A DNA stretch of 17,046 nucleotides from a virus (lineage: Duplodnaviria; Heunggongvirae; Uroviricota; Caudoviricetes), in the IMG/VR virus record IMGVR_UViG_2651869780_000020, positions 1 to 17,046 of that record. One strand, 5' to 3'. The translations under genes were made by a program, and so were the position numbers. The notes below the pieces were generated by a model. It was not told the DNA's origin. It searched no databases and saw only the letters and a program-made list of their open reading frames with translations. Of this stretch, positions 6,463 to 14,429 are shown in pieces (positions within the stretch are counted from its first letter, which is position 1; each line of letters starts with the position of its first letter).

Positions 6463-7158
6463 ATGTTATATGCATTTAAGCTGGGCAGAAAACTGCGCGG
6501 CGAGGAACCTTATTGCCCTGAAAAAGGCGGGAAAGGTGGCAGTTCTGATAAAAGCGCAAAGTATGCAGCAGAAGCTCAGAAGTATGCCGCAGACCTGCAA
6601 AATCAGCAGTGGCAGACGATCATGAAAAACCTTGCTCCGTTCACGCCACTCGCTCAGCAGTACGTATCACAATTGCAGAATCTTTCCTCTCTTCAGGGAC
6701 AAGGTCAGGCACTTAACCAGTATTACAACTCTCAGCAGTACAAAGATCTTGCTGGTCAGGCTCGCTATCAGAGTCTGGCTGCAGCGGAAGCAACAGGTGG
6801 ATTGGGTTCCACTGCAACCGGTAATCAGTTAGCAACAATCGCACCAACGCTTGGTCAGCAGTGGCTGTCTGGTCAGATGAACAACTACCAGAATCTGGCA
6901 AATATTGGTCTTGGCGCACTGCAAGGTCAGGCAAACGCCGGGCAGACATATGCCAACAACATGAGTCAGATTTCGCAGCAAAGTGCGGCTCTTGCCGCTG
7001 CTAATGCCAATAAACCATCAGGTCTTCAGACAGCAATTAGCGGCGGAGCTTCAGGGGCTATGACTGGCGCTGCTCTTGGCTCTATTGTTCCCGGACTTGG
7101 CACTGGATTAGGTGCGGCAATTGGCGGCGGACTTGGCCTGCTTGGATCGTTGTTTTAA
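6463..7158 (+). CDS. Ejection (injection) protein, P22 gp7-like
   Basis: 231 aa versus about 229 aa for P22 gp7. Gln-rich low-complexity middle and a Gly/Ala-rich hydrophobic C-terminus (GAALGSIVPGLGTGLGAAIGGGLGLLGSLF) consistent with a membrane-inserting ejection protein. RBS gggaga at 6452-6457. Confidence 0.8.
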   Translation: MLYAFKLGRKLRGEEPYCPEKGGKGGSSDKSAKYAAEAQKYAADLQNQQWQTIMKNLAPFTPLAQQYVSQLQNLSSLQGQGQALNQYYNSQQYKDLAGQARYQSLAAAEATGGLGSTATGNQLATIAPTLGQQWLSGQMNNYQNLANIGLGALQGQANAGQTYANNMSQISQQSAALAAANANKPSGLQTAISGGASGAMTGAALGSIVPGLGTGLGAAIGGGLGLLGSLF

Positions 7159-7167
7159 GGGGTAATC

Positions 7168-8574
7168 ATGGCTACTTGGCAAGGAACAAATGGCGGATTG
7201 TTGGCTGGTATCGGTGGTGTCAACTCAAACGCTCCGAGCGTAAATGACATCGGCAATACGCTTCAGCTTATCAGACAGAACAATGATATTGAGCGTTCAG
7301 GCGCTAACAATGTTGGGCTGACTGCTTTGCAAGGTCTTTCAGGTATTGCGGGGGTGTTTCAGCAGGAAAAGCAGGCTCAGCGGCAGAAAGAATTTCAGCA
7401 GGCATACGCTAATGCTTATGCGTCTGGTGATCGCGGTGCTTTGCGTCAGTTGGCTACTCAATATCCAGACCAGATTGAATCCGTTCGTAAAGGCATGGGA
7501 TTCATTGACGAAGACCAGCGCAATTCTATCGGCACCTTAGCGGCTGGCGCACGCCTTGCGGCCTCGTCTCCAGAAGCAATGCAATCATGGCTGCAAAACA
7601 ACGCCAAGGAACTGGCGCGCGTCGGTGTTGACCCTAATAACGTTGCTCAGATGTATCAGCAGAATCCTTCAGGATTTGGTGAGTTTGTTGATCACCTTGG
7701 GATGGCTGCGCTTGGTCCGATTGATTACTTCAATGTTCAGGACAAGATGGCTGGTCGTGAGATTGACCGAGGCAGACTGGCAGAGACAATCCGCAGCAAT
7801 CAGGCTGGAGAAGCACTTCAGGCGAGAGGGCAAAACCTTTCCTATCAGTCAGCAATGACTGGGCACAATATCGCAGCACAACGCTTGGCTCTGGATCAGC
7901 AAGAGTTCGGGTTTAAGATGCAGCAAGCGCAGGAAAAGGCTCAGCAGTTGATTAGCGAAGCACCTAAGCTGTCAGTAAACATGGAAAAAGGCATCGAGAC
8001 GGCTGTAAACAATGCTACAGCATCATCAAACTCAGCCAATTCTATGAGTGCGCTTGCTCAACAGTTCAGAGCAGAAAAACCAACGACAGGTTTGTTCGGT
8101 AACGCACAGAACATGTTCGCAAAACTTACCGGAAGCGATACAACATTGCGTGATTTGCGCATCCGCCAAAATGCCCTTGTTAACAGTCAGGTTCTTAAAT
8201 TCCTACCTCCAGGCCCCGCAACGGATAAAGACGTTGAGATCGTTCGGCAGGGTGCACCAACTGACATGGATAACCCTGAGACGGTCGCAAGATGGCTTGA
8301 TGCGATGGCAAACCTTGAGCGACGAAACGCGCAGTTTAATGAGTTTAAAGCCGAGTGGATGAGCGCGAATGGCAATCCAGGACAATCGCGTAATGGCGGT
8401 CAGATATTGGGGTTGGATGTTAAAAAAGGTGAATCATTGGGGAGTGCCGTTAAGCGGTATATGTCAATGAATACTGACGCAGCGCCAGCACAAGATTCGA
8501 CACCTTCAGGAGAACCACGGAATCAGGTTGGATCATATACCTCAAAATCAGGCATTCAATTTACGGTGGAATGA
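7168..8574 (+). CDS. Ejection (injection) protein, P22 gp20-like
   Basis: 468 aa versus about 471 aa for P22 gp20; syntenic; RBS aagggg. Stop overlaps the next start (ATGA at 8571-8574). Confidence 0.8.
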
Positions 8575-10697
8575 TGAAAGTAACTGCAAACGGTAAGACA
8601 TTTACCTTCCCTGATGGTACGAGCACGGAAGATATTGGCACCGCCATTGATGAGTATTTTGCTGGTCAGGCTGTTCAGCAACAAACAGTTAATCAGGCCA
8701 ATAATGAACCAGCACGTGAAGAACCATCATTGATGCAACAAGCTGGCGATTGGCTCACAGGTGGTCAAAGTGCAGGGCAAATTGCAGAGCAGGCTGGTCG
8801 TGGTCTGGTAAACATACCATTTGACGTATTGCAGGGTGGCGCAAGTCTGATTAATGCAATCAGCCAGGGGCTTGGTGGCCCCAAGGTTTTGGATGATGTT
8901 TATCGCCCTGTCGATCGACCGACAGACCGTTGGGCGCAAGCCGGTGAAACATTTGGTGGGTATCTCCTGCCAATTGGCACAGCGGCAAAAGCTGCTGGAG
9001 CGACAGCAAAGCTCGCAGGAGACATCGGTTCCGCAGGAAACATGATTGCAGGTTCTCTTGCTGATGCTGCAAATCAGAAGGGTGATTTTGCACAAAATGC
9101 TGCCATTAACGGTGGTATCAATATTGGTGCTCAAGGCGTTCTTTCAGGTGTCGGGCGCGTTATTGCGCCAAGGGTTTCACAGGCTCTTGGTGGTGCAGCA
9201 CTGAATTCTGCTAATGATGTTTCCAGGATGGCAAAGTCAGGTGCTGGGCGTCAGTCAATTGCCAGTCAGGCCGCTAATGTGTCCGAAGATGTAGCAAAAG
9301 CGGCTGAGTCTGCTGGAATTGATATAAACGCATTAACACCAGGAATGCGATCTGGAAGTCGTGGAATTGCACAAGCCGAAGGCGCATTGGCATCAACACC
9401 AGGAATTGTTCAGGACGCCCATCAGGCAGCATTTAACGAAATATCATCAAAGTTAAGTCGAAACCTTGATGAATTTGGGGCCGCATCTGGAACGGCATCA
9501 GAAAAAAGTGCGGCTATAAAACAAAGGATTCTTCAAAATCTTGAACAGATGAAGGATGCCGAGCGCGCGGCATGGGATGACGTGCGGTCAACAATGCCAA
9601 ATCAAAAAGCAAGAATGCTAAATGGTAATGCCGTTATTCAGGCAGAGCGATCTGCTGGCATACCGCTTACTCCTGAAATGAAACAGTTTGTTCAGGCAAA
9701 CAATCAAGGTGGAGTAACATTTGATGGCATGAAAGCATGGAGAGCGAAATTTGCTGATGCGGAGCAAAAATATAAGCGTAGCGGAGAGGCAAATGCGGCA
9801 AGGAGAGCAGGGGAAATACGCCGGGCAATTACTGATGATATGCGCACAATGGCGGAAAACGGCGGATTTCTTGATGACTGGCAGAAAGCTAATGATCTGT
9901 CTAAAGCGAGGTTATCAGCACAAGAGAGTGCAGAGTCTGTTTTCGGGCGTGATTTGGCAACAGATGCACTGATTACGAATGGAGTAAAATCCCTTCAATC
10001 ATCGTCAGCTAAAGGTCTTAATGGCCCTGCTGGGTTCCATTCTATGATCCGCGCGCTGCCAGAATCAGAGCGTGTTCCTGCTATATCATCAATGTTGCAA
10101 GACGCTATCTCGCATGGTGTACGTGGTGGCAAAGCTGATGCAGCAGGAATTAACCATATCGCAGGGATACTTACCCCACAAAATGTAAAAGCCATTAGCA
10201 GATATTCCTCAGAACTCGGAAGAATTGCTGATGCATATGGCACTCTTGCAAGAGCAGCAGTGAAACCTCAGCAGTATATTGAAAGAACAGGGAGAACTGC
10301 CAATGTACTACGCGATCTGGATGCTGGTTTATCCAACGTCACATCAACAGTGTTAAATGCAATTGCCAACTCAACATCAGGTGCCATTGTTGGTGGCGCT
10401 GGAGGGGGTATTGCAGGCGCTGCCGCGGGTGCTTTAGTTGGCGCTGGGTTAAAAGGCGCTGTATCTAAAATTGCCACCACACGTAGTGGCCGATATGCGA
10501 TAGAGAAAGCTGTTCAGGAAGCCACCAAAGCAGTAAGAGCAGGCGGAAGTAAAGAAGCATTAGCGGCTGCGGAACGCAGATTTATGGCAAATAAGGCCGC
10601 CGTAAAAGCAATACGCGAGGCACTAGGAAACGAAGAGTTCCAGCGTTTAGCAAGAGCTGGAATTGTGGCATCGCTAAGCGGAATGGCACAGGAGTAA
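8571..10697 (+). CDS. Ejection (injection) protein, P22 gp16-like
   Basis: 708 aa, last and largest of the three ejection proteins. Gly/Ala-rich segments. Translationally coupled to gp20. Longer than P22 gp16 (about 609 aa as recalled). Confidence 0.8.
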
Positions 10698-11102
10698 TTA
10701 GTCATCCATGGATGGATTGAGCTTATCTCGTGTTGATGTGGCAATTTTCCCAACATTTTTCAACCAAGATTTTAAGAAGGATATGTCGTCCTTAATATCA
10801 TGAATATCCTCATTCTTTATACGATCAACCTTATCCTCTAAGCTCTCTATAGAACGCTCAATGCTAGACAGAGAGATTTTTAAGTCCCCTTGCTCACGTT
10901 CCAGTGAGGATTTGAGAGCACAATATTCGTTTTCTAGAATTCCTATTTTTTTTGTTAGAGAGTGCATTCGATACTCATACACCAAACCAGAAACGACTAA
11001 TGCAGCCAACAGAAACCATTCAAGCACACCAACCTCCTTAGTTTTGAGCAGGATACCAGATGATAATGTGTAGTTGGAGTAGCGCGGTTGTAATGCAAGC
11101 AT
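10698..11102 (-). CDS. Hypothetical membrane-anchored coiled-coil protein (candidate superinfection-exclusion function, P22 sieA position)
   Basis: 134 aa. One predicted transmembrane helix (LEWFLLAALVVSGLVYEY) followed by a heptad-rich charged segment (LENEYCALKSSLEREQGDLKISLSSIERSIESLEDKVDRIKNEDIHDIKDDISFLKSW). AT-rich. Convergent with gp16 with abutting stop codons (TAATTA at 10695-10700). No obvious SD sequence. No family recognised. Confidence 0.55.
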   Translation of the reverse strand: MLALQPRYSNYTLSSGILLKTKEVGVLEWFLLAALVVSGLVYEYRMHSLTKKIGILENEYCALKSSLEREQGDLKISLSSIERSIESLEDKVDRIKNEDIHDIKDDISFLKSWLKNVGKIATSTRDKLNPSMDD

Positions 11103-11182
11103 TTTGTTTTAGTTTTATGCTTGCTTGTATGTGTGTACAGTGTATATAATGCAAGCATACATCACAACAAAGGTGCTTGCAT
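11093..11182. repeat. Four copies of a 9-10 bp near-palindromic motif in alternating orientation: ATGCAAGCAT (11093-11102), ATGCTTGC (11117-11124), ATGCAAGCAT (11149-11158), TGCTTGCAT (11174-11182)
   Basis: Read directly from the sequence. The copies form two imperfect inverted-repeat units of about 32 bp, spaced about 56 bp apart. Copy 1 overlaps the start codon of the - strand membrane protein; copy 2 overlaps the -35; copy 3 abuts the -10; copy 4 lies between the RBS and the ATG of the 322-aa gene. Confidence 0.6.
11121..11150 (+). promoter_or_regulatory. Sigma70-like promoter for the 322-aa accessory gene
   Basis: TTGCTT (11121-11126), 18-bp spacer, TATAAT (11145-11150); RBS aggtg at 11171-11175; ATG at 11184. 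Confidence 0.55.
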
Positions 11183-11183
11183 T

Positions 11184-12152
11184 ATGACTGAAAAGAAAAG
11201 TGGCGAAGGGAAAGCTAAGGGCGGGATCGCTCGCGCAAAGTCGCTGACTAAAGAGCAGCGTTCTGAAATAGCAAAGAAAGCAGCTGCTGCAAGATGGAAA
11301 AGTAAGATTCTCAGGGCAACTCATCGTGGTAACTTTTTAGATGATTTTGGCATTGATGCTGAATGTTATGTACTGGATGACGAGTCGAAAACTGTCGTTG
11401 TTACGAAAACTGGATTATCTCAGTTGCTAGGGATTGGTGAACATGCCAGGGATTTAGATCAACTGCTTGGCGCTCAGTATATGAGCAAATACCGAGATCT
11501 AGAATTGCAGCGAAAAATGGAAAATCCCTATAAATTTCAACTTACTTCGAAGTCTAAAACCGTTCATCAAGCGTTAGGTTATGACATTACAGCAATTGTT
11601 GATATTGGTAGGGCACTAATAGAAGCCAAAGATAATGACGATCTACCACAATCACGGTTAAAGGCAGCCGCCGCAGCACAGAGACTTATTAATGCCTCCG
11701 CTAAGGCGGGAATTAAGGGGGTTGCGTATGCGCTTGCTGGTTATCGTCCAGAAGTTCAGGCTGTCATTGACGAGTTCAAAGCGTTTGTTCGTGAAGAGGC
11801 TCGTCAATATGAAAAGGAATTTCCAGATGAGCTATACGAGGAGTGGTATCGACTGTACGGCCTGAATAGGCCAGAGAAAGGACGGCCTATTCGTTTTGGG
11901 CAGCTAACCAACATGCAGATATACACCCCGCTAGCAAAGAGTAAAGGTAAAATCCTTGAACAGATTCGAGCCAGCCGAGACGAGAACGGAAAACAATCTG
12001 ATAAGTTGCATCTGTTCCTTTCTGAAATTGGTGTCAAGGCTTTGCGTCAGCATATCGGTAAGCTTCTTGGTGTCGCAGCGATGAGTGAGACAAGAGAAGA
12101 ATACGAAAAAGGAATAGAAAAGGTTTTCGGAAGAATGAAACCAGAAATCTAA
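11184..12152 (+). CDS. Hypothetical 322-aa accessory (moron) protein with a basic N-terminal helix-turn-helix-like motif; function unknown
   Basis: Long ORF with its own promoter and a strong terminator. The TTG start at 11121 in the ORF track is rejected in favour of ATG 11184 (MTEKKSGEGKAKGGIARAKSLTKEQRSEIAKKAAAARW..). The remainder is a charged, helical-looking domain. Not part of the conserved P22 structural set. Confidence 0.75.
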   Translation: MTEKKSGEGKAKGGIARAKSLTKEQRSEIAKKAAAARWKSKILRATHRGNFLDDFGIDAECYVLDDESKTVVVTKTGLSQLLGIGEHARDLDQLLGAQYMSKYRDLELQRKMENPYKFQLTSKSKTVHQALGYDITAIVDIGRALIEAKDNDDLPQSRLKAAAAAQRLINASAKAGIKGVAYALAGYRPEVQAVIDEFKAFVREEARQYEKEFPDELYEEWYRLYGLNRPEKGRPIRFGQLTNMQIYTPLAKSKGKILEQIRASRDENGKQSDKLHLFLSEIGVKALRQHIGKLLGVAAMSETREEYEKGIEKVFGRMKPEI

Positions 12153-12157
12153 TTATG

Positions 12158-12183
12158 AAACCCACCGTCAGGTGGGTTTTTTG
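12158..12183. terminator. Intrinsic terminator, probably bidirectional
   Basis: aaacccacc (12158-12166), loop gtca, ggtgggttt (12171-12179), T-run to 12183; A-rich on the upstream side. Lies between the convergent 322-aa gene (+) and the 67-aa gene (-). Confidence 0.8.
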
Positions 12184-12198
12184 TTGGAGATAAAATGG

Positions 12199-12402
12199 TT
12201 AACCAAATCGATCCTTAAAGCGCCTATCGCTGTTGCGTCTCTCCATTTTACTGTTGCAGTACGGACAAAGATGCTGTTTCTTTCCATCGATAGTCCATGT
12301 GAAGTACTTTTTCTTAAATCCAGCACCACAGATATCGCAACTTCTTGGTTTAAACATACTGGCTATGAAGATAAGAACAACAAATCCTATGATCCATTCC
12401 AT
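12199..12402 (-). CDS. Small membrane-anchored zinc-ribbon protein (67 aa)
   Basis: N-terminal hydrophobic helix (EWIIGFVVLIFIASMF) followed by CDIC..(19 aa)..CPYC, i.e. four Cys in a C-x2-C...C-x2-C arrangement, and a basic tail. Ends just before the bidirectional terminator. Confidence 0.5.
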   Translation of the reverse strand: MEWIIGFVVLIFIASMFKPRSCDICGAGFKKKYFTWTIDGKKQHLCPYCNSKMERRNSDRRFKDRFG

Positions 12403-12543: not shown

Positions 12544-12729
12544 ATGACCATAGAAGAACGCCTGAACAACATTGAGTTGAACCAAACCCTGCTTGACCAG
12601 CGACTTTCAGATCTTGAGCTTAAAGATCTTGATGCGCAAATATCAGAAGCAGAAGCCAAGCTCTCCAGCTTAAACCACCGCAAGAAGCAAATCCGCAACA
12701 GAATTACTCAGGGACGCGGAAGCTGTTGA
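12544..12729 (+). CDS. Small coiled-coil protein (61 aa)
   Basis: ATG 12544 preceded by a strong SD AAGGAG (12533-12538) at 5-nt spacing; the GTG at 12496 in the ORF track is rejected. Sequence MTIEERLNNIELNQTLLDQRLSDLELKDLDAQISEAEAKL.. is heptad-like. The 3' end overlaps the convergent 69-aa ORF by 26 nt. Confidence 0.5.
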   Translation: MTIEERLNNIELNQTLLDQRLSDLELKDLDAQISEAEAKLSSLNHRKKQIRNRITQGRGSC

Positions 12730-12913
12730 GGTGGGATGCTAGGTCTCTATCGTTAAAATCAAGGCTGCTAATCATTTCATTGTAAATGGCGTTTTTATCT
12801 TCCATTGGCAGTCTTGAGTAAACCAGACACAGAGCATATTTCAGGGAGTTTAGCTCTTTCTCTAGCTCTTCCTTGCTTGACGTTGTTGACTTAATAAACT
12901 GTTTTTTATTCAT
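12704..12913 (-). CDS. Hypothetical 69-aa protein, translationally coupled downstream of mnt
   Basis: On the - strand its ATG overlaps the mnt TGA stop (ATGA at 12910-12913). No recognisable family. Confidence 0.45.
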   Translation of the reverse strand: MNKKQFIKSTTSSKEELEKELNSLKYALCLVYSRLPMEDKNAIYNEMISSLDFNDRDLASHLNSFRVPE

Positions 12914-13161
12914 TTTGCATCCTTACCATACATGGTCTTTAGCGTCTCAACATCGTGTTCAAGATCTATCAATCGTGATGCTATAGTTGCAAGGTCTAGT
13001 GCTTGAATGTGTTTATTTTTTTCGGTCCACGCTTCAAGTGCCGCGACCATCTCAGCATTTAATGAACGAGAATTAGCCTCAGCCAGTTCAATAAGACGTT
13101 CCTTTATCTCTACAGGAAGCCTCAGATTCACTTGAGGGTTTTTGTACTTACGATCAGACAT
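12910..13161 (-). CDS. mnt: Mnt-like ribbon-helix-helix repressor (Arc/MetJ superfamily)
   Basis: 83 aa, the same length as P22 Mnt as recalled. N-terminus ..NLRLPVEIKERLIELAEANSRSLNAEMVAALEAW matches the RHH beta-strand/helix pattern of P22 Mnt (..FRMPMEVREKLKFRAEANGRSMNSELLQIV..). Divergent from arc. Confidence 0.8.
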   Translation of the reverse strand: MSDRKYKNPQVNLRLPVEIKERLIELAEANSRSLNAEMVAALEAWTEKNKHIQALDLATIASRLIDLEHDVETLKTMYGKDAK

Positions 13162-13266
13162 CGGCGCATCCTGAATAATTTTTTACCACAGGATATGTAG
13201 GTATCTATTGACTATCAATGCGTACCTAAATGCTATGTATGCGTACCACGTACAACGGAGGATGCA
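13162..13266. promoter_or_regulatory. Divergent promoter/operator region between mnt and arc (Pmnt/Pant-like)
   Basis: 105-bp intergenic region. Palindrome ATTGA-cta-TCAAT (13207-13219) contains back-to-back -35-like hexamers (TTGACT on +, TTGATA on -). Direct repeat ATGCGTACC at 13218-13226 and 13239-13247, 21 bp apart. Inverted ATCCTG/CAGGAT (13168-13173 / 13189-13194). AGGATGC precedes both start codons. Exact -10 elements are ambiguous. Confidence 0.55.
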
Positions 13267-13407
13267 ATGAAGGTAAAAACACTGCGTATGCCAGAGAAGC
13301 TAGAAAAAATTCTTGAAGAAAAAGCAAAGGAAGAGTGTCGCTCATTCAGCGCAGAAGTAATTAAACGGGTGCTGGACAGCCTGAGGAGAGAGGGGATAAC
13401 GGTGTGA
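13267..13407 (+). CDS. arc: Arc-like ribbon-helix-helix repressor (46 aa; below the ORF-track size cutoff)
   Basis: Own translation: MKVKTLRMPEKLEKILEEKAKEECRSFSAEVIKRVLDSLRREGITV. The segment RSFSAEVIKRVLDSLRREG resembles P22 Arc RSVNSEIYQRVMESFKKEG as recalled. SD GGAGG at 13256-13260. Sits between mnt and ant as in P22 immI. Confidence 0.75.
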   Translation: MKVKTLRMPEKLEKILEEKAKEECRSFSAEVIKRVLDSLRREGITV

Positions 13408-13423: not shown

Positions 13424-13472
13424 AAAGAAATCAAAACAGTGAAGCCCCAACTGCGGGAACAGTCAGGGCTTC
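13424..13472 (-). terminator. Intrinsic terminator oriented for leftward (- strand) transcription in the arc-ant spacer
   Basis: Stem GAAGCCC (13441-13447) / GGGCTTC (13466-13472) with an inner ACTG/CAGT helix. On the - strand it is followed by ACUGUUUUGAUUUCUUU (complement of 13424-13440). No U-run follows it on the + strand. Confidence 0.55.
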
Positions 13473-13505
13473 GGTATCGTAAAACCACGCATAGGAATTA
13501 ACGAC
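13424..13505 (-). ncRNA. Predicted sar-like small antisense RNA, complementary to the ant ribosome-binding site
   Basis: Inferred from a - strand promoter inside the ant 5' end (see 13512-13540) plus the - strand terminator at 13424-13472. The predicted transcript of about 80 nt is antisense to the ant SD (agga 13493-13496) and start region, analogous to the P22 Sar RNA. Ends are approximate. Confidence 0.4.
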
Positions 13506-14429
13506 ATGAAAAGTATAGCAACAGCAGTATCTACTATCAATGTACCATTCCACGGCGCAGAGCTTTATGTTGTCAATCACAACGGCGAACCGTATACCCC
13601 AATGAAACCTATCGTTGAGGGAATGGGGCTAGACTGGAAATCTCAACATAAGAAGATTTCTCAACGCTTCTCGAAGGGTATGGTGGAAATCACCATACCT
13701 TCTGCCGGTGGGGTGCAAGCCATGATTTGTATGGCTTTACGAAAATTGGCAGCTTGGTTGAACAGCATCAGTCCTAACAAAGTCCGCCCTGAAATCCGCG
13801 ACAAGGAAATCCAGTATCAGGAAGAGTGTGACGATGTGCTCTACGAGTACTGGACTAAAGGCCATGTAGTTAACCCACGCAAAGCTAAAAAGGCGTTGCC
13901 GGGTAAAATCACCACTGAACAGCAGGAAGCCATTAAACAACTCGTCATGAGTCGCGGTCAGTCTCTGCCAAAAGAAAAACAGGCTAAGGCGATGATCACC
14001 ATGTGGTCGTCACTGAAATCTCATTTTGGGTGTTCATACAAAGAAATCAGCGATGAGCAGTTTACCGAAGCTCTGTCACTTGCAGCTCGCGTTCCGCTTG
14101 AAGGCGAGTTAATCGGCAAACAAGAGAAGAAAGCAAACGAGCTTTCTGCAAAAGAAGCAAACAGCCTTGTATGGTTATGGGATTATGCCAACCGCTCACA
14201 GGCATTATTCCGCGAACTGTATCCGGCGCTAAAACAAATTCAATCGAACTATTCCGGCAGATGTCATGACTGCGGTTATGAGTTCTCCCGTATTATCGAT
14301 ATGGCGAGAGATGTTTTAATCAACCATACACGAGATGTTGATATTAATGAGCCAGACGGACCAACGAATCTTTCCGCATGGATGAGACTTAAGAATAAAG
14401 AATTACCTCCTTCAGTACATAACTACTGA
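13506..14429 (+). CDS. ant: Antirepressor (Ant-like)
   Basis: 307 aa versus about 300 aa for P22 Ant. Located directly downstream of arc. N-terminal pattern (..VPFHGAELYVV..GEPYTPMKPIVEGMGLDWKSQHKKI..) is reminiscent of phage antirepressor N-terminal domains. Followed by a terminator. Confidence 0.7.
   Translation: MKSIATAVSTINVPFHGAELYVVNHNGEPYTPMKPIVEGMGLDWKSQHKKISQRFSKGMVEITIPSAGGVQAMICMALRKLAAWLNSISPNKVRPEIRDKEIQYQEECDDVLYEYWTKGHVVNPRKAKKALPGKITTEQQEAIKQLVMSRGQSLPKEKQAKAMITMWSSLKSHFGCSYKEISDEQFTEALSLAARVPLEGELIGKQEKKANELSAKEANSLVWLWDYANRSQALFRELYPALKQIQSNYSGRCHDCGYEFSRIIDMARDVLINHTRDVDINEPDGPTNLSAWMRLKNKELPPSVHNY
13512..13540 (-). promoter_or_regulatory. Psar-like leftward promoter inside the first codons of ant
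   Basis: On the - strand: TTGATA (complement of 13535-13540), 17-bp spacer, TATACT (complement of 13512-13517); the predicted start is near the ant ATG. Confidence 0.5.

What the first reader, a model, noticed from the sequence alone, without database searches (positions are those of the whole stretch)
12704..13161. mnt is translationally coupled to a 69-aa unknown ORF (RHH repressor plus small partner)
The mnt stop and the next ORF's start overlap as ATGA on the - strand, indicating co-translation. A ribbon-helix-helix DNA-binding protein followed by a small coupled protein is the layout of many type II toxin-antitoxin and addiction modules, although the 69-aa sequence shows no RelE/ParE-like signature I recognise. 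It could instead be a new immI accessory factor.
Basis: partly seen in the sequence, partly recalled or inferred. Interest (0 to 1): 0.55.

Follow-up and report, generated by a model that had tools for sequence, protein, structure and literature searches.

The report
Small passenger gene riding on mnt
The 69-codon ORF overlapping the end of the prophage repressor gene mnt is a real, conserved small-protein gene, but it behaves as an exchangeable passenger gene of the variable P22-like "ant moron" region, not as the toxin half of a toxin-antitoxin pair.

Summary
On the minus strand an 83-aa Arc/Mnt-type repressor gene (12910-13161) and a 69-aa ORF (12704-12913) share ATGA, with an AAGGA Shine-Dalgarno 6 nt upstream. 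The region is a genuine P22-type immI locus (mnt, arc, sar RNA, ant).

orf69 is a real gene. dN/dS is 0.06-0.13, and homologs at 33-50% identity occur in Providencia, Proteus, Rahnella and Enterobacter prophages. The family is PHROG 16466, function unknown.

The toxin-antitoxin reading fails.
- Nearly identical orf69 copies sit behind at least five different upstream genes, including a non-RHH membrane protein.
- The same mnt allele is coupled elsewhere to unrelated ORFs.
- Two homolog groups stand alone with no RHH gene nearby.
- No toxin family or fold matches.

The model is a soluble three-helix protein (pLDDT 82).

Best reading: orf69 is one of several alternative cargo genes in the slot between mnt and a conserved convergent 61-aa gene, translated from the mnt transcript through a portable SD-ATGA junction. 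Its biochemical role is unknown; I infer a Mnt-independent protein-binding role in lysogens. This is ordinary phage mosaicism and of low to moderate interest.

The parts
12910..13161 (-). mnt-like gene: 83-aa Arc/Mnt-family ribbon-helix-helix repressor
   Evidence: Pfam Arc E=3.2e-10. phrog_795 E=6e-27. 32% identity to P22 Mnt over 79 aa, E=1e-10. Position is divergent from arc-sar-ant, as in P22.
12704..12913 (-). orf69: 69-aa soluble three-helix protein of unknown function (PHROG 16466)
   Evidence: phrog_16466 E=5.5e-51. dN/dS 0.06-0.13. 46-56 protein clusters, all in Enterobacterales. AF2 pLDDT 82 with helices 14-33, 37-48 and 53-63.
12910..12924 (-). Coupling junction AAGGATGCAAAATGA: Shine-Dalgarno inside the last mnt codons, plus overlapping stop and start
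   Evidence: Sequence read directly. The same 17-nt junction GTAAGGATGCAAAATGA follows the unrelated upstream gene orf77 in Emek-type loci.
12908..12950 (-). 43-bp conserved 3' end of mnt; this is where homology breaks between mosaics, so it is a likely recombination boundary
   Evidence: Megablast alignments start or stop at query positions corresponding to 12908-12950 (H30-H49, H55-H60; H13-H15).
13190..13218 (-). Candidate Pmnt promoter (TTGATA-17-TATCCT)
   Evidence: Consensus scan only, 9 of 12 positions. It overlaps the inverted repeat 13195-13231.
13195..13231 (.). Imperfect 17-nt-arm inverted repeat in the mnt/arc intergenic region; operator-like
   Evidence: the repeat finder I1, 76% complementary. 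Its role as an operator is inferred by analogy with the P22 Oarc/Omnt sites.
13267..13407 (+). arc-like gene (46 aa)
   Evidence: Pfam Arc E=1.2e-7.
13438..13504 (-). sar antisense RNA
   Evidence: Rfam RF00262, 76.6 bits against a gathering score of 43, E=1e-15. Terminator-like hairpin at 13472-13441 and promoter-like site at 13540-13512.
13506..14429 (+). ant antirepressor gene (307 aa)
   Evidence: Pfam P22_AR_N E=2e-43 and P22_AR_C E=1e-27.
12544..12729 (+). orf61: convergent 61-aa coiled-coil gene whose 3' end overlaps orf69 by 26 nt; it forms the other border of the cargo slot
   Evidence: phrog_7586 E=3.5e-44. dN/dS 0.06-0.19. AAGGAG Shine-Dalgarno 5 nt upstream. Present in 37 of 37 orf69 loci. 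Present in 129-130 E. coli genomes against 74-76 for orf69.

Best explanation
orf69 is a genuine small-protein gene. It occupies an exchangeable cargo slot of the P22-like 'ant moron', between the 3' end of the mnt operon and the convergent gene orf61.

Expression (inferred). It has no promoter of its own in this window. It is transcribed from Pmnt as the second cistron. It is translated through a portable junction: an AAGGA Shine-Dalgarno built into the last codons of whichever gene lies upstream, plus an ATGA stop/start overlap. Its synthesis should therefore follow mnt: low and constitutive in the lysogen, and shut off when Arc or Pant and late antisense transcription take over.

Protein (inferred). 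The product is a soluble, slightly acidic three-helix protein with no membrane segment and no enzyme or toxin signature. It works independently of Mnt. It most probably acts by binding another protein, phage or host, as a lysogen-phase accessory factor.

Shown here: the gene is real, the junction and the slot are conserved, the partners are interchangeable, and there is no toxin similarity. Inferred: the Pmnt transcript, the coupling mechanism, and the protein-binding role.
For: Real gene. dN/dS is 0.06-0.13 at dS 0.8-1.6. Homologs at 33-50% identity hit phrog_16466 independently, E=1e-8 to 4e-13.

Conserved junction. All 37 IMG/VR loci have an intact orf69 and the ATGA overlap. The AAGGA-N5/6-ATGA junction is also present in the L013 Providencia, the Proteus and the Rahnella loci.

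Interchangeable partners. orf69 copies at least 97% identical lie behind Mnt83 (11 loci), Arc78 (12), two further RHH variants (5) and the two-transmembrane non-RHH protein orf77 (9). In 5426 complete E. coli genomes, orf69 is in 74-76, this mnt allele is in 142, and both are together in only 24. The same mnt allele is coupled to orf121 (L008), to the signal-peptide protein orf105 (L009) and, in a lambdoid prophage, a related mnt-like gene is coupled to a ClpP-like gene.

Standalone homologs. One group sits on the opposite strand between the tail chaperone and tape-measure genes of an Enterobacter siphovirus-type prophage. Another sits next to a tailspike gene with no mnt, arc or ant, with its own AT-rich leader and a TAAGGAG Shine-Dalgarno.

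Location. The slot lies between the third injection-protein gene (8571-10697, in the position of P22 gene 16; no Pfam match) and the tailspike gene. Villafane et al. 2008 describe this region as a highly variable 'ant moron' holding genes of unknown function (PMC2629481). P22 itself carries an unrelated small ORF (orf59a) between mnt and the mnt terminator.

Structure. AF2 gives a three-helix model at pLDDT 82.
Against: No transcript, ribosome-profiling or proteomic data for orf69 were available. In Kapi1 lysogens, mnt (Kapi1_063, immediately upstream of the 98.6%-identical Kapi1_062) was below the RNA-seq detection threshold in LB and simulated intestinal fluid (PMC12922286). Expression from Pmnt may therefore be very low or conditional.

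Within P22-like prophages the gene is almost always in the mnt operon, across three Mnt lineages and several genera. That could reflect a functional tie to immI rather than mere hitch-hiking.

Confidence: 0.62

Rival explanations
1. immI accessory regulator. orf69 is made in fixed ratio with Mnt and modulates the secondary-immunity circuit. For example, it could neutralise leaky or incoming antirepressor (Ant), or tune Mnt or Arc activity.
For: In P22-like prophages of Escherichia, Salmonella, Providencia, Proteus and Rahnella the homolog lies in the mnt operon, usually with the ATGA overlap, next to arc and ant. This holds across three Mnt lineages that are only 31-53% identical. Every mnt-linked locus examined also has an ant gene.
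Against: Homologs exist without any immI genes nearby. L024/L025 lie next to a tailspike gene with no mnt, arc or ant. The Enterobacter L017-L019/L023 homolog lies in a siphovirus-type tail module with no Arc or Ant domain within 10 kb on either side. Most genomes with this mnt allele lack orf69, 118 of 142. In Emek-type loci it is coupled to a membrane-protein gene, not to mnt.
Confidence: 0.17
2. Functional pair with the convergent gene orf61. The lysogeny-strand product (orf69) antagonises or is regulated by the late-strand coiled-coil protein orf61, possibly also through antisense overlap of their 3' ends.
For: orf61 is present and tail-to-tail overlapping in 37 of 37 orf69 loci. A homologous or similar convergent small ORF also overlaps the orf69 homolog in Providencia, Proteus and L024. 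Both genes are under purifying selection.
Against: orf61 occurs without orf69 in about 55 E. coli genomes (129-130 against 74-76), for example L009 where orf105 fills the slot. The Rahnella and Enterobacter orf69 homologs lack orf61. The adjacency can be explained by shared ancestry of the region, with orf61 simply forming the slot's border.
Confidence: 0.1
3. Type II toxin-antitoxin module, with Mnt as the RHH antitoxin and autorepressor and orf69 as the toxin.
For: The gene order is RHH first and small ORF second, with a 4-nt overlap. This slot can hold toxin-like genes: CUS-3 has a YafO-like ORF there, Pfam E=3e-11.
Confidence: 0.04
4. orf69 is not a gene: a chance ORF in the 3' untranslated part of the mnt transcript.
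For: It is small, has no functional annotation, and PGAP left it unannotated in one genome (L026).
Against: dN/dS is 0.06-0.13. Length and frame are kept from 33% to 100% identity across genera. A Shine-Dalgarno is conserved. The ORF is intact in 37 of 37 loci and also in L026.
Confidence: 0.02

Closest known systems
Variable genes of the 'ant moron' of P22-like phages (Villafane et al. 2008, PMC2629481), e.g. P22 orf59a between mnt and the mnt terminator
   Same: Same genomic slot, between the gene-16 homolog and the tailspike gene. Same strand and operon as mnt. Small, of unknown function, and present in only some relatives.
   Different: There is no sequence similarity to orf59a (BLASTP E=0.53). 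orf69 overlaps the upstream gene by 4 nt, whereas orf59a lies 99 nt after mnt.
Accessory genes co-transcribed with a maintenance repressor, e.g. lambda rexA/rexB behind cI (my own knowledge; the same analogy is drawn for epsilon34 genes 44/45 in PMC2629481)
   Same: A passenger gene rides on the transcript of a repressor that is made in the lysogen.
   Different: Rex is a two-protein abortive-infection system with a membrane component. orf69 is a single soluble 69-aa protein, and no phenotype is known.
Type II toxin-antitoxin operons with an RHH antitoxin (ParD/ParE, CopG-RelE type); also omega-epsilon-zeta, where an RHH regulator precedes a small three-helix protein (my own knowledge)
   Same: RHH gene first, small overlapping ORF second.
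   Different: No toxin family or fold is matched. The partners are interchangeable. Some homologs stand alone. No zeta-like third gene follows.
PHROG 16466 (Emek orf69, Kapi1_062; RefSeq WP_001036008.1)
   Same: The window protein is a full-length member, E=5.5e-51, and is 97-99% identical to the Emek and Kapi1 proteins.
   Different: Nothing differs. The family has no assigned function.

Membership tests
Type II toxin-antitoxin module (RHH antitoxin plus toxin) | The downstream protein belongs to, or has the fold of, a known toxin family | tested here: not met
Type II toxin-antitoxin module (RHH antitoxin plus toxin) | Toxin and cognate antitoxin are inherited together; the toxin is never found without its neutraliser | tested here: not met
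   At least five upstream partner types occur for orf69 copies at least 97% identical, including the non-RHH orf77. Standalone homologs exist. Only 24 of 74-76 orf69-bearing E. coli genomes have this mnt allele.
Type II toxin-antitoxin module (RHH antitoxin plus toxin) | Antitoxin gene upstream of and overlapping the toxin gene in one operon | tested here: met
   ATGA overlap. This is not discriminating: other phage genes in the window overlap the same way.
Type II toxin-antitoxin module (RHH antitoxin plus toxin) | Growth inhibition by the toxin that the antitoxin relieves | not testable with these tools
   Needs inducible expression of orf69 with and without mnt.
P22-type immI region (mnt / arc / sar / ant) | RHH Mnt gene divergent from arc-ant, with a sar antisense RNA between arc and ant, and Ant carrying the P22_AR domains | tested here: met
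   Arc domain in both small repressors and P22_AR_N/C in Ant. sar RF00262 scores 76.6 bits. The layout is as in P22.
P22-type immI region (mnt / arc / sar / ant) | Mnt C-terminal tetramerisation domain (Pfam Repressor_Mnt, PF11423) | tested here: inconclusive
   PF11423 is not among the Pfam hits for the window protein at E<=1, although it is listed for the P22-type Mnt of L013, L016 and L020. BLASTP still aligns residues 8-80 with P22 Mnt 5-81 at 32% identity.
Moron / 'ant moron' cargo gene | Lies between the gene-16 and gene-9 homologs, is not a morphogenetic or lysis gene, and is present in only some related phages | tested here: met
   gp7 and gp20 domains lie upstream and the tailspike Head_binding domain lies downstream. 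The gene-16 homolog itself (8571-10697) is assigned by position only; it has no Pfam match. Presence is variable. The concept is from PMC2629481.
Moron / 'ant moron' cargo gene | Own promoter and terminator (an autonomous transcription unit) | tested here: not met
   In the window orf69 has no room for a promoter, because it overlaps mnt, and no intrinsic terminator follows it. It is a passenger of the mnt unit. The standalone homologs L024 and L017 do have an AT-rich leader with their own Shine-Dalgarno.
PHROG 16466 | Full-length match to the family profile | tested here: met
   E=5.5e-51, residues 1-69 on profile positions 1-69.

The most novel reading that the evidence does not exclude
orf69, possibly together with the convergent late-strand gene orf61, is a new lysogen-phase effector. 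One form would be a soluble anti-antirepressor that neutralises Ant made by the resident or by superinfecting phages. Another would be an antagonist of the late protein orf61. In either case it would be kept at a fixed ratio to the gene upstream by a portable translational-coupling junction.
Probability: 0.13. Interest if true: 0.55.

Novelty: new member of a known kind. Interest (0 to 1): 0.25.

Why it matters
It removes a tempting false positive. An RHH gene followed by a small overlapping ORF looks like a toxin-antitoxin module, but here that layout comes from cargo genes being spliced onto the 3' end of mnt. It also defines a small protein family conserved across Enterobacterales, and a precise exchangeable slot (mnt 3' end / cargo / orf61 3' end) with a portable SD-ATGA junction. 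That slot is a convenient place to look for prophage-expressed accessory or defence genes. It does not open a long-standing question.

Tried and rejected
- P22 orf59a as a homolog: unrelated.
- The afdb50 library was not available.
- PDB profile search: nothing below E=0.01.
- Exhaustive HMMER over 1.84 billion representatives: only three true remote homologs (P0048, P0049, P0051). The longer hits P0047, P0050 and P0052 are repetitive sequences that I judged false.
- The search for related loci with the mixed alignment failed because no stretch was conserved enough.
- The Proteus query found nothing in IMG/VR.
- I checked whether the window is the LF82 prophage Gally, whose mnt is induced 40-fold in macrophages. 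It is not. Gally has mnt but no ant and no orf69, so those data do not transfer.
- NRG 857C has identical mnt and orf69 but different flanks.
- No intrinsic terminator lies directly after orf69.
- A DNA-binding (HTH-like) reading of the three-helix model was considered and set aside. The third helix is acidic and the basic N-terminal tail is not conserved.

Full report
**Observation.** On the minus strand an 83-aa ORF (12910-13161) ends ...AAG GAT GCA AAA TGA. A 69-aa ORF (12704-12913) begins at the ATG of that same ATGA. An AAGGA Shine-Dalgarno lies 6 nt upstream of the ATG, inside the last codons of the upstream gene. The pattern AAGGA-N6-ATGA occurs twice in the window against 0.15 expected.

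**What the region is.** The window is the late region of a P22-like (Lederbergvirus-type) prophage.
- gp7 and gp20 injection-protein domains lie at 6463-8574. A third injection-protein gene follows at 8571-10697; it has no Pfam match and is taken as the gene-16 homolog by position. A Head_binding tailspike gene lies at 14530-16569.
- Between them lies a complete immI locus. The 83-aa protein has an Arc-type RHH domain (E=3e-10) and aligns with P22 Mnt over 79 residues (32% identity, E=1e-10).
- Divergent from it are a 46-aa Arc-like gene, a sar antisense RNA (Rfam RF00262, 76.6 bits against a gathering score of 43), and a 307-aa Ant with both P22_AR domains.
- The layout matches annotated P22. 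Calling the gene 'mnt' is therefore justified by homology and position, although Pfam's Repressor_Mnt C-terminal model does not detect this allele.

**orf69 is a real gene.**
- It matches PHROG 16466 (unknown function) end to end, E=5.5e-51.
- It is annotated as a hypothetical protein in phages Emek (orf69) and Kapi1 (Kapi1_062) and in RefSeq genomes.
- A search of 5.8 billion proteins gave 46 clusters, all from E. coli or Salmonella, at 74-99% identity.
- Profile searches added homologs at 33-50% identity from Providencia, Proteus, Rahnella, Enterobacter and unassigned contigs. These hit phrog_16466 independently, E=1e-8 to 4e-13.
- Nei-Gojobori estimates for the informative pairs give dN/dS 0.06-0.13 at dS 0.8-1.6.

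**Contexts of the family.**
- In P22-like prophages of E. coli (L004, L005), Providencia (L013), Proteus (L014-L016) and Rahnella (L020), the homolog follows an Arc/Mnt gene with a 4-nt overlap and an AAGGA-N5/6-ATGA junction. This holds across three Mnt lineages that are only 31-53% identical to one another.
- In Emek-type loci and in Providencia L011/L012, another ORF sits between mnt and the homolog. These are orf77, a two-transmembrane protein, and orf92.
- Two groups are standalone. The Enterobacter homolog lies on the opposite strand in the 366-nt gap between a tail-chaperone-like gene and the tape-measure gene of a siphovirus-type prophage. No Arc or Ant domain lies within 10 kb on either side.
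- The L024/L025 homolog lies directly beside a tailspike gene with no mnt, arc or ant. It has its own leader and a TAAGGAG Shine-Dalgarno.

**Independent assortment.**
- In 37 IMG/VR loci whose orf69 is at least 97% identical to the window copy, every copy is intact and every one has the ATGA overlap.
- The upstream gene is Mnt83 in 11 loci, Arc78 (40% identical to Mnt83) in 12, two other RHH variants in 5, and the membrane protein orf77 in 9.
- The last 15-17 nt before the start codon are the same in all of them. As a result, unrelated upstream proteins all end in ...KDAK.
- Among 5426 complete E. coli genomes, orf69 is in 74-76, this mnt allele is in 142, and the two are contiguous in 24.
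- The same mnt allele is elsewhere overlapped by a 121-aa Cys-rich ORF (L008) and by a 105-aa signal-peptide protein (L009). In a lambdoid prophage a related mnt-like gene is overlapped by a ClpP-like gene.
- Megablast homology breaks fall at window 12908-12950, the 3' end of mnt.
- On the other side, the convergent 61-aa gene orf61 (12544-12729; phrog_7586; dN/dS 0.06-0.19) overlaps the orf69 3' end in all 37 loci. It is more widespread than orf69: 129-130 genomes, for example L009 where orf105 fills the slot.
- The picture is a slot bounded by the mnt 3' end and the orf61 3' end, into which alternative cargo genes are recombined.

**Test of the toxin-antitoxin idea.**
- No toxin or defence family matches orf69 in Pfam, PADLOC, NCBIfam or PDB sequences.
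- AlphaFold2 with a 17-sequence alignment gives a three-helix protein: pLDDT 82, helices 14-33, 37-48 and 53-63, with a disordered N-terminal tail.
- Together with the interchangeable partners and the partnerless homologs, two defining features of a TA pair are tested and not met. Only the uninformative gene order is met; other genes in this window overlap by 4 nt too.
- The slot can hold TA-like genes. CUS-3 has a YafO-like ORF there. That says something about the slot, not about orf69.

**Expression evidence from the literature.**
- P22 carries a small unrelated ORF, orf59a, between mnt and the annotated mnt terminator. A passenger ORF in the mnt operon therefore has precedent.
- Villafane et al. 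[quoted passage not shown]
- In Kapi1 lysogens, mnt (Kapi1_063) was below the RNA-seq detection threshold in LB and simulated intestinal fluid. Kapi1_062 is not on the list of undetected genes (PMC12922286). This is weak and ambiguous evidence, and it warns that Pmnt output can be very low.
- LF82 prophage Gally shows 40-fold induction of mnt in macrophages, but Gally lacks orf69 and ant. That result cannot be transferred to this window.

**Most likely mechanism.**
- Shown: the gene is real, the SD-ATGA junction is conserved and portable, the slot has defined borders, orf69 is independent of a particular upstream protein, and there is no toxin signature.
- Inferred: orf69 is transcribed from the candidate Pmnt (13218-13190) on the mnt mRNA. 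It is translated by ribosomes that terminate at the mnt stop or load at the embedded AAGGA. Its level therefore tracks mnt in the lysogen.
- No intrinsic terminator follows orf69. The next clear hairpin on that strand is at about 12157-12180, after a 67-aa ORF.
- The protein is soluble and slightly acidic, with no metal-binding or catalytic motif. I infer a protein-binding accessory factor that acts independently of Mnt. I put 0.62 on this overall reading, 0.17 on a true immI regulatory role, 0.10 on a functional pairing with orf61, 0.04 on a TA module, and 0.02 on a non-gene.

**Novelty and interest.** The ORF and its family are already catalogued as hypothetical. The region is a known mosaic hotspot. 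What is added here is the negative result on the TA idea, the extension of the family to four more genera, and the definition of the slot and its portable coupling junction. This is a new member of a known kind and of low to moderate interest.

Noticed in passing
window 12544-12729 (+): orf61 is a 61-aa coiled-coil gene (phrog_7586; PGAP sometimes calls it 'hemolysin XhlA family'), convergent with orf69 and overlapping it by 26 nt. It has a strong AAGGAG Shine-Dalgarno and dN/dS of 0.06-0.19. It is present in 129-130 E. coli genomes and has homologs in Providencia and Proteus. Its function is unknown.
   Followed up: partly
window 12908-12950 (-); L022 2501-2542: The 43-bp 3' end of mnt is about 95% conserved in otherwise unrelated prophages. 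One is a lambdoid prophage where an mnt-like gene inside an immI-like insert in the tail operon overlaps a ClpP-like protease gene. This looks like a recombination boundary for swapping downstream cargo.
   Followed up: partly
window 12199-12402 (-) and 12157-12180: A 67-aa ORF has an N-terminal hydrophobic segment and a CxxC...CxxC zinc-ribbon motif (weak Pfam and PHROG hits only). It is followed by a strong bidirectional hairpin terminator (z about -4 to -5) that also ends the P63C gene.
   Followed up: partly
window 11121-12152 (+): A 322-343-aa protein with a P63C domain (Pfam E=7e-14; phrog_2384, unknown function) occupies the left part of the ant moron. A 134-aa ORF on the opposite strand (10698-11102) has no family match.
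   Followed up: no
L001 (CUS-3) 1164-1580 and 1565-2164: In CUS-3 the same slot downstream of two tandem mnt-like genes holds a 139-aa YafO-toxin-like ORF (Pfam E=3e-11), preceded by an overlapping 199-aa ORF. This is a more credible TA candidate than orf69.
   Followed up: no
P22 NC_002371 mnt (L010 14519-14770); phrog_795 and phrog_2685: The RefSeq P22 record and two PHROGs label Mnt as 'partition protein ATPase'. This is an evident annotation error that propagates to homologs such as Emek mnt in NC_018275.
   Followed up: no
L026 2501-2710 (E. coli 20AR0300): An intact orf69 (69 codons) is left unannotated by PGAP in this RefSeq genome.
   Followed up: yes
L013 2354-2701; L005 4398-5036; L009 1282-1731: Other cargo in the same ant-moron region of related prophages includes a Rap1a-like (T6SS immunity) protein, SieA and a Panacea-domain protein. 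This fits a defence and competition hotspot.
   Followed up: no
window 13267-13407 (+): The arc-like gene encodes only 46 aa, against 53 aa in P22. It is 98 nt from ant, with the sar RNA in between.
   Followed up: no
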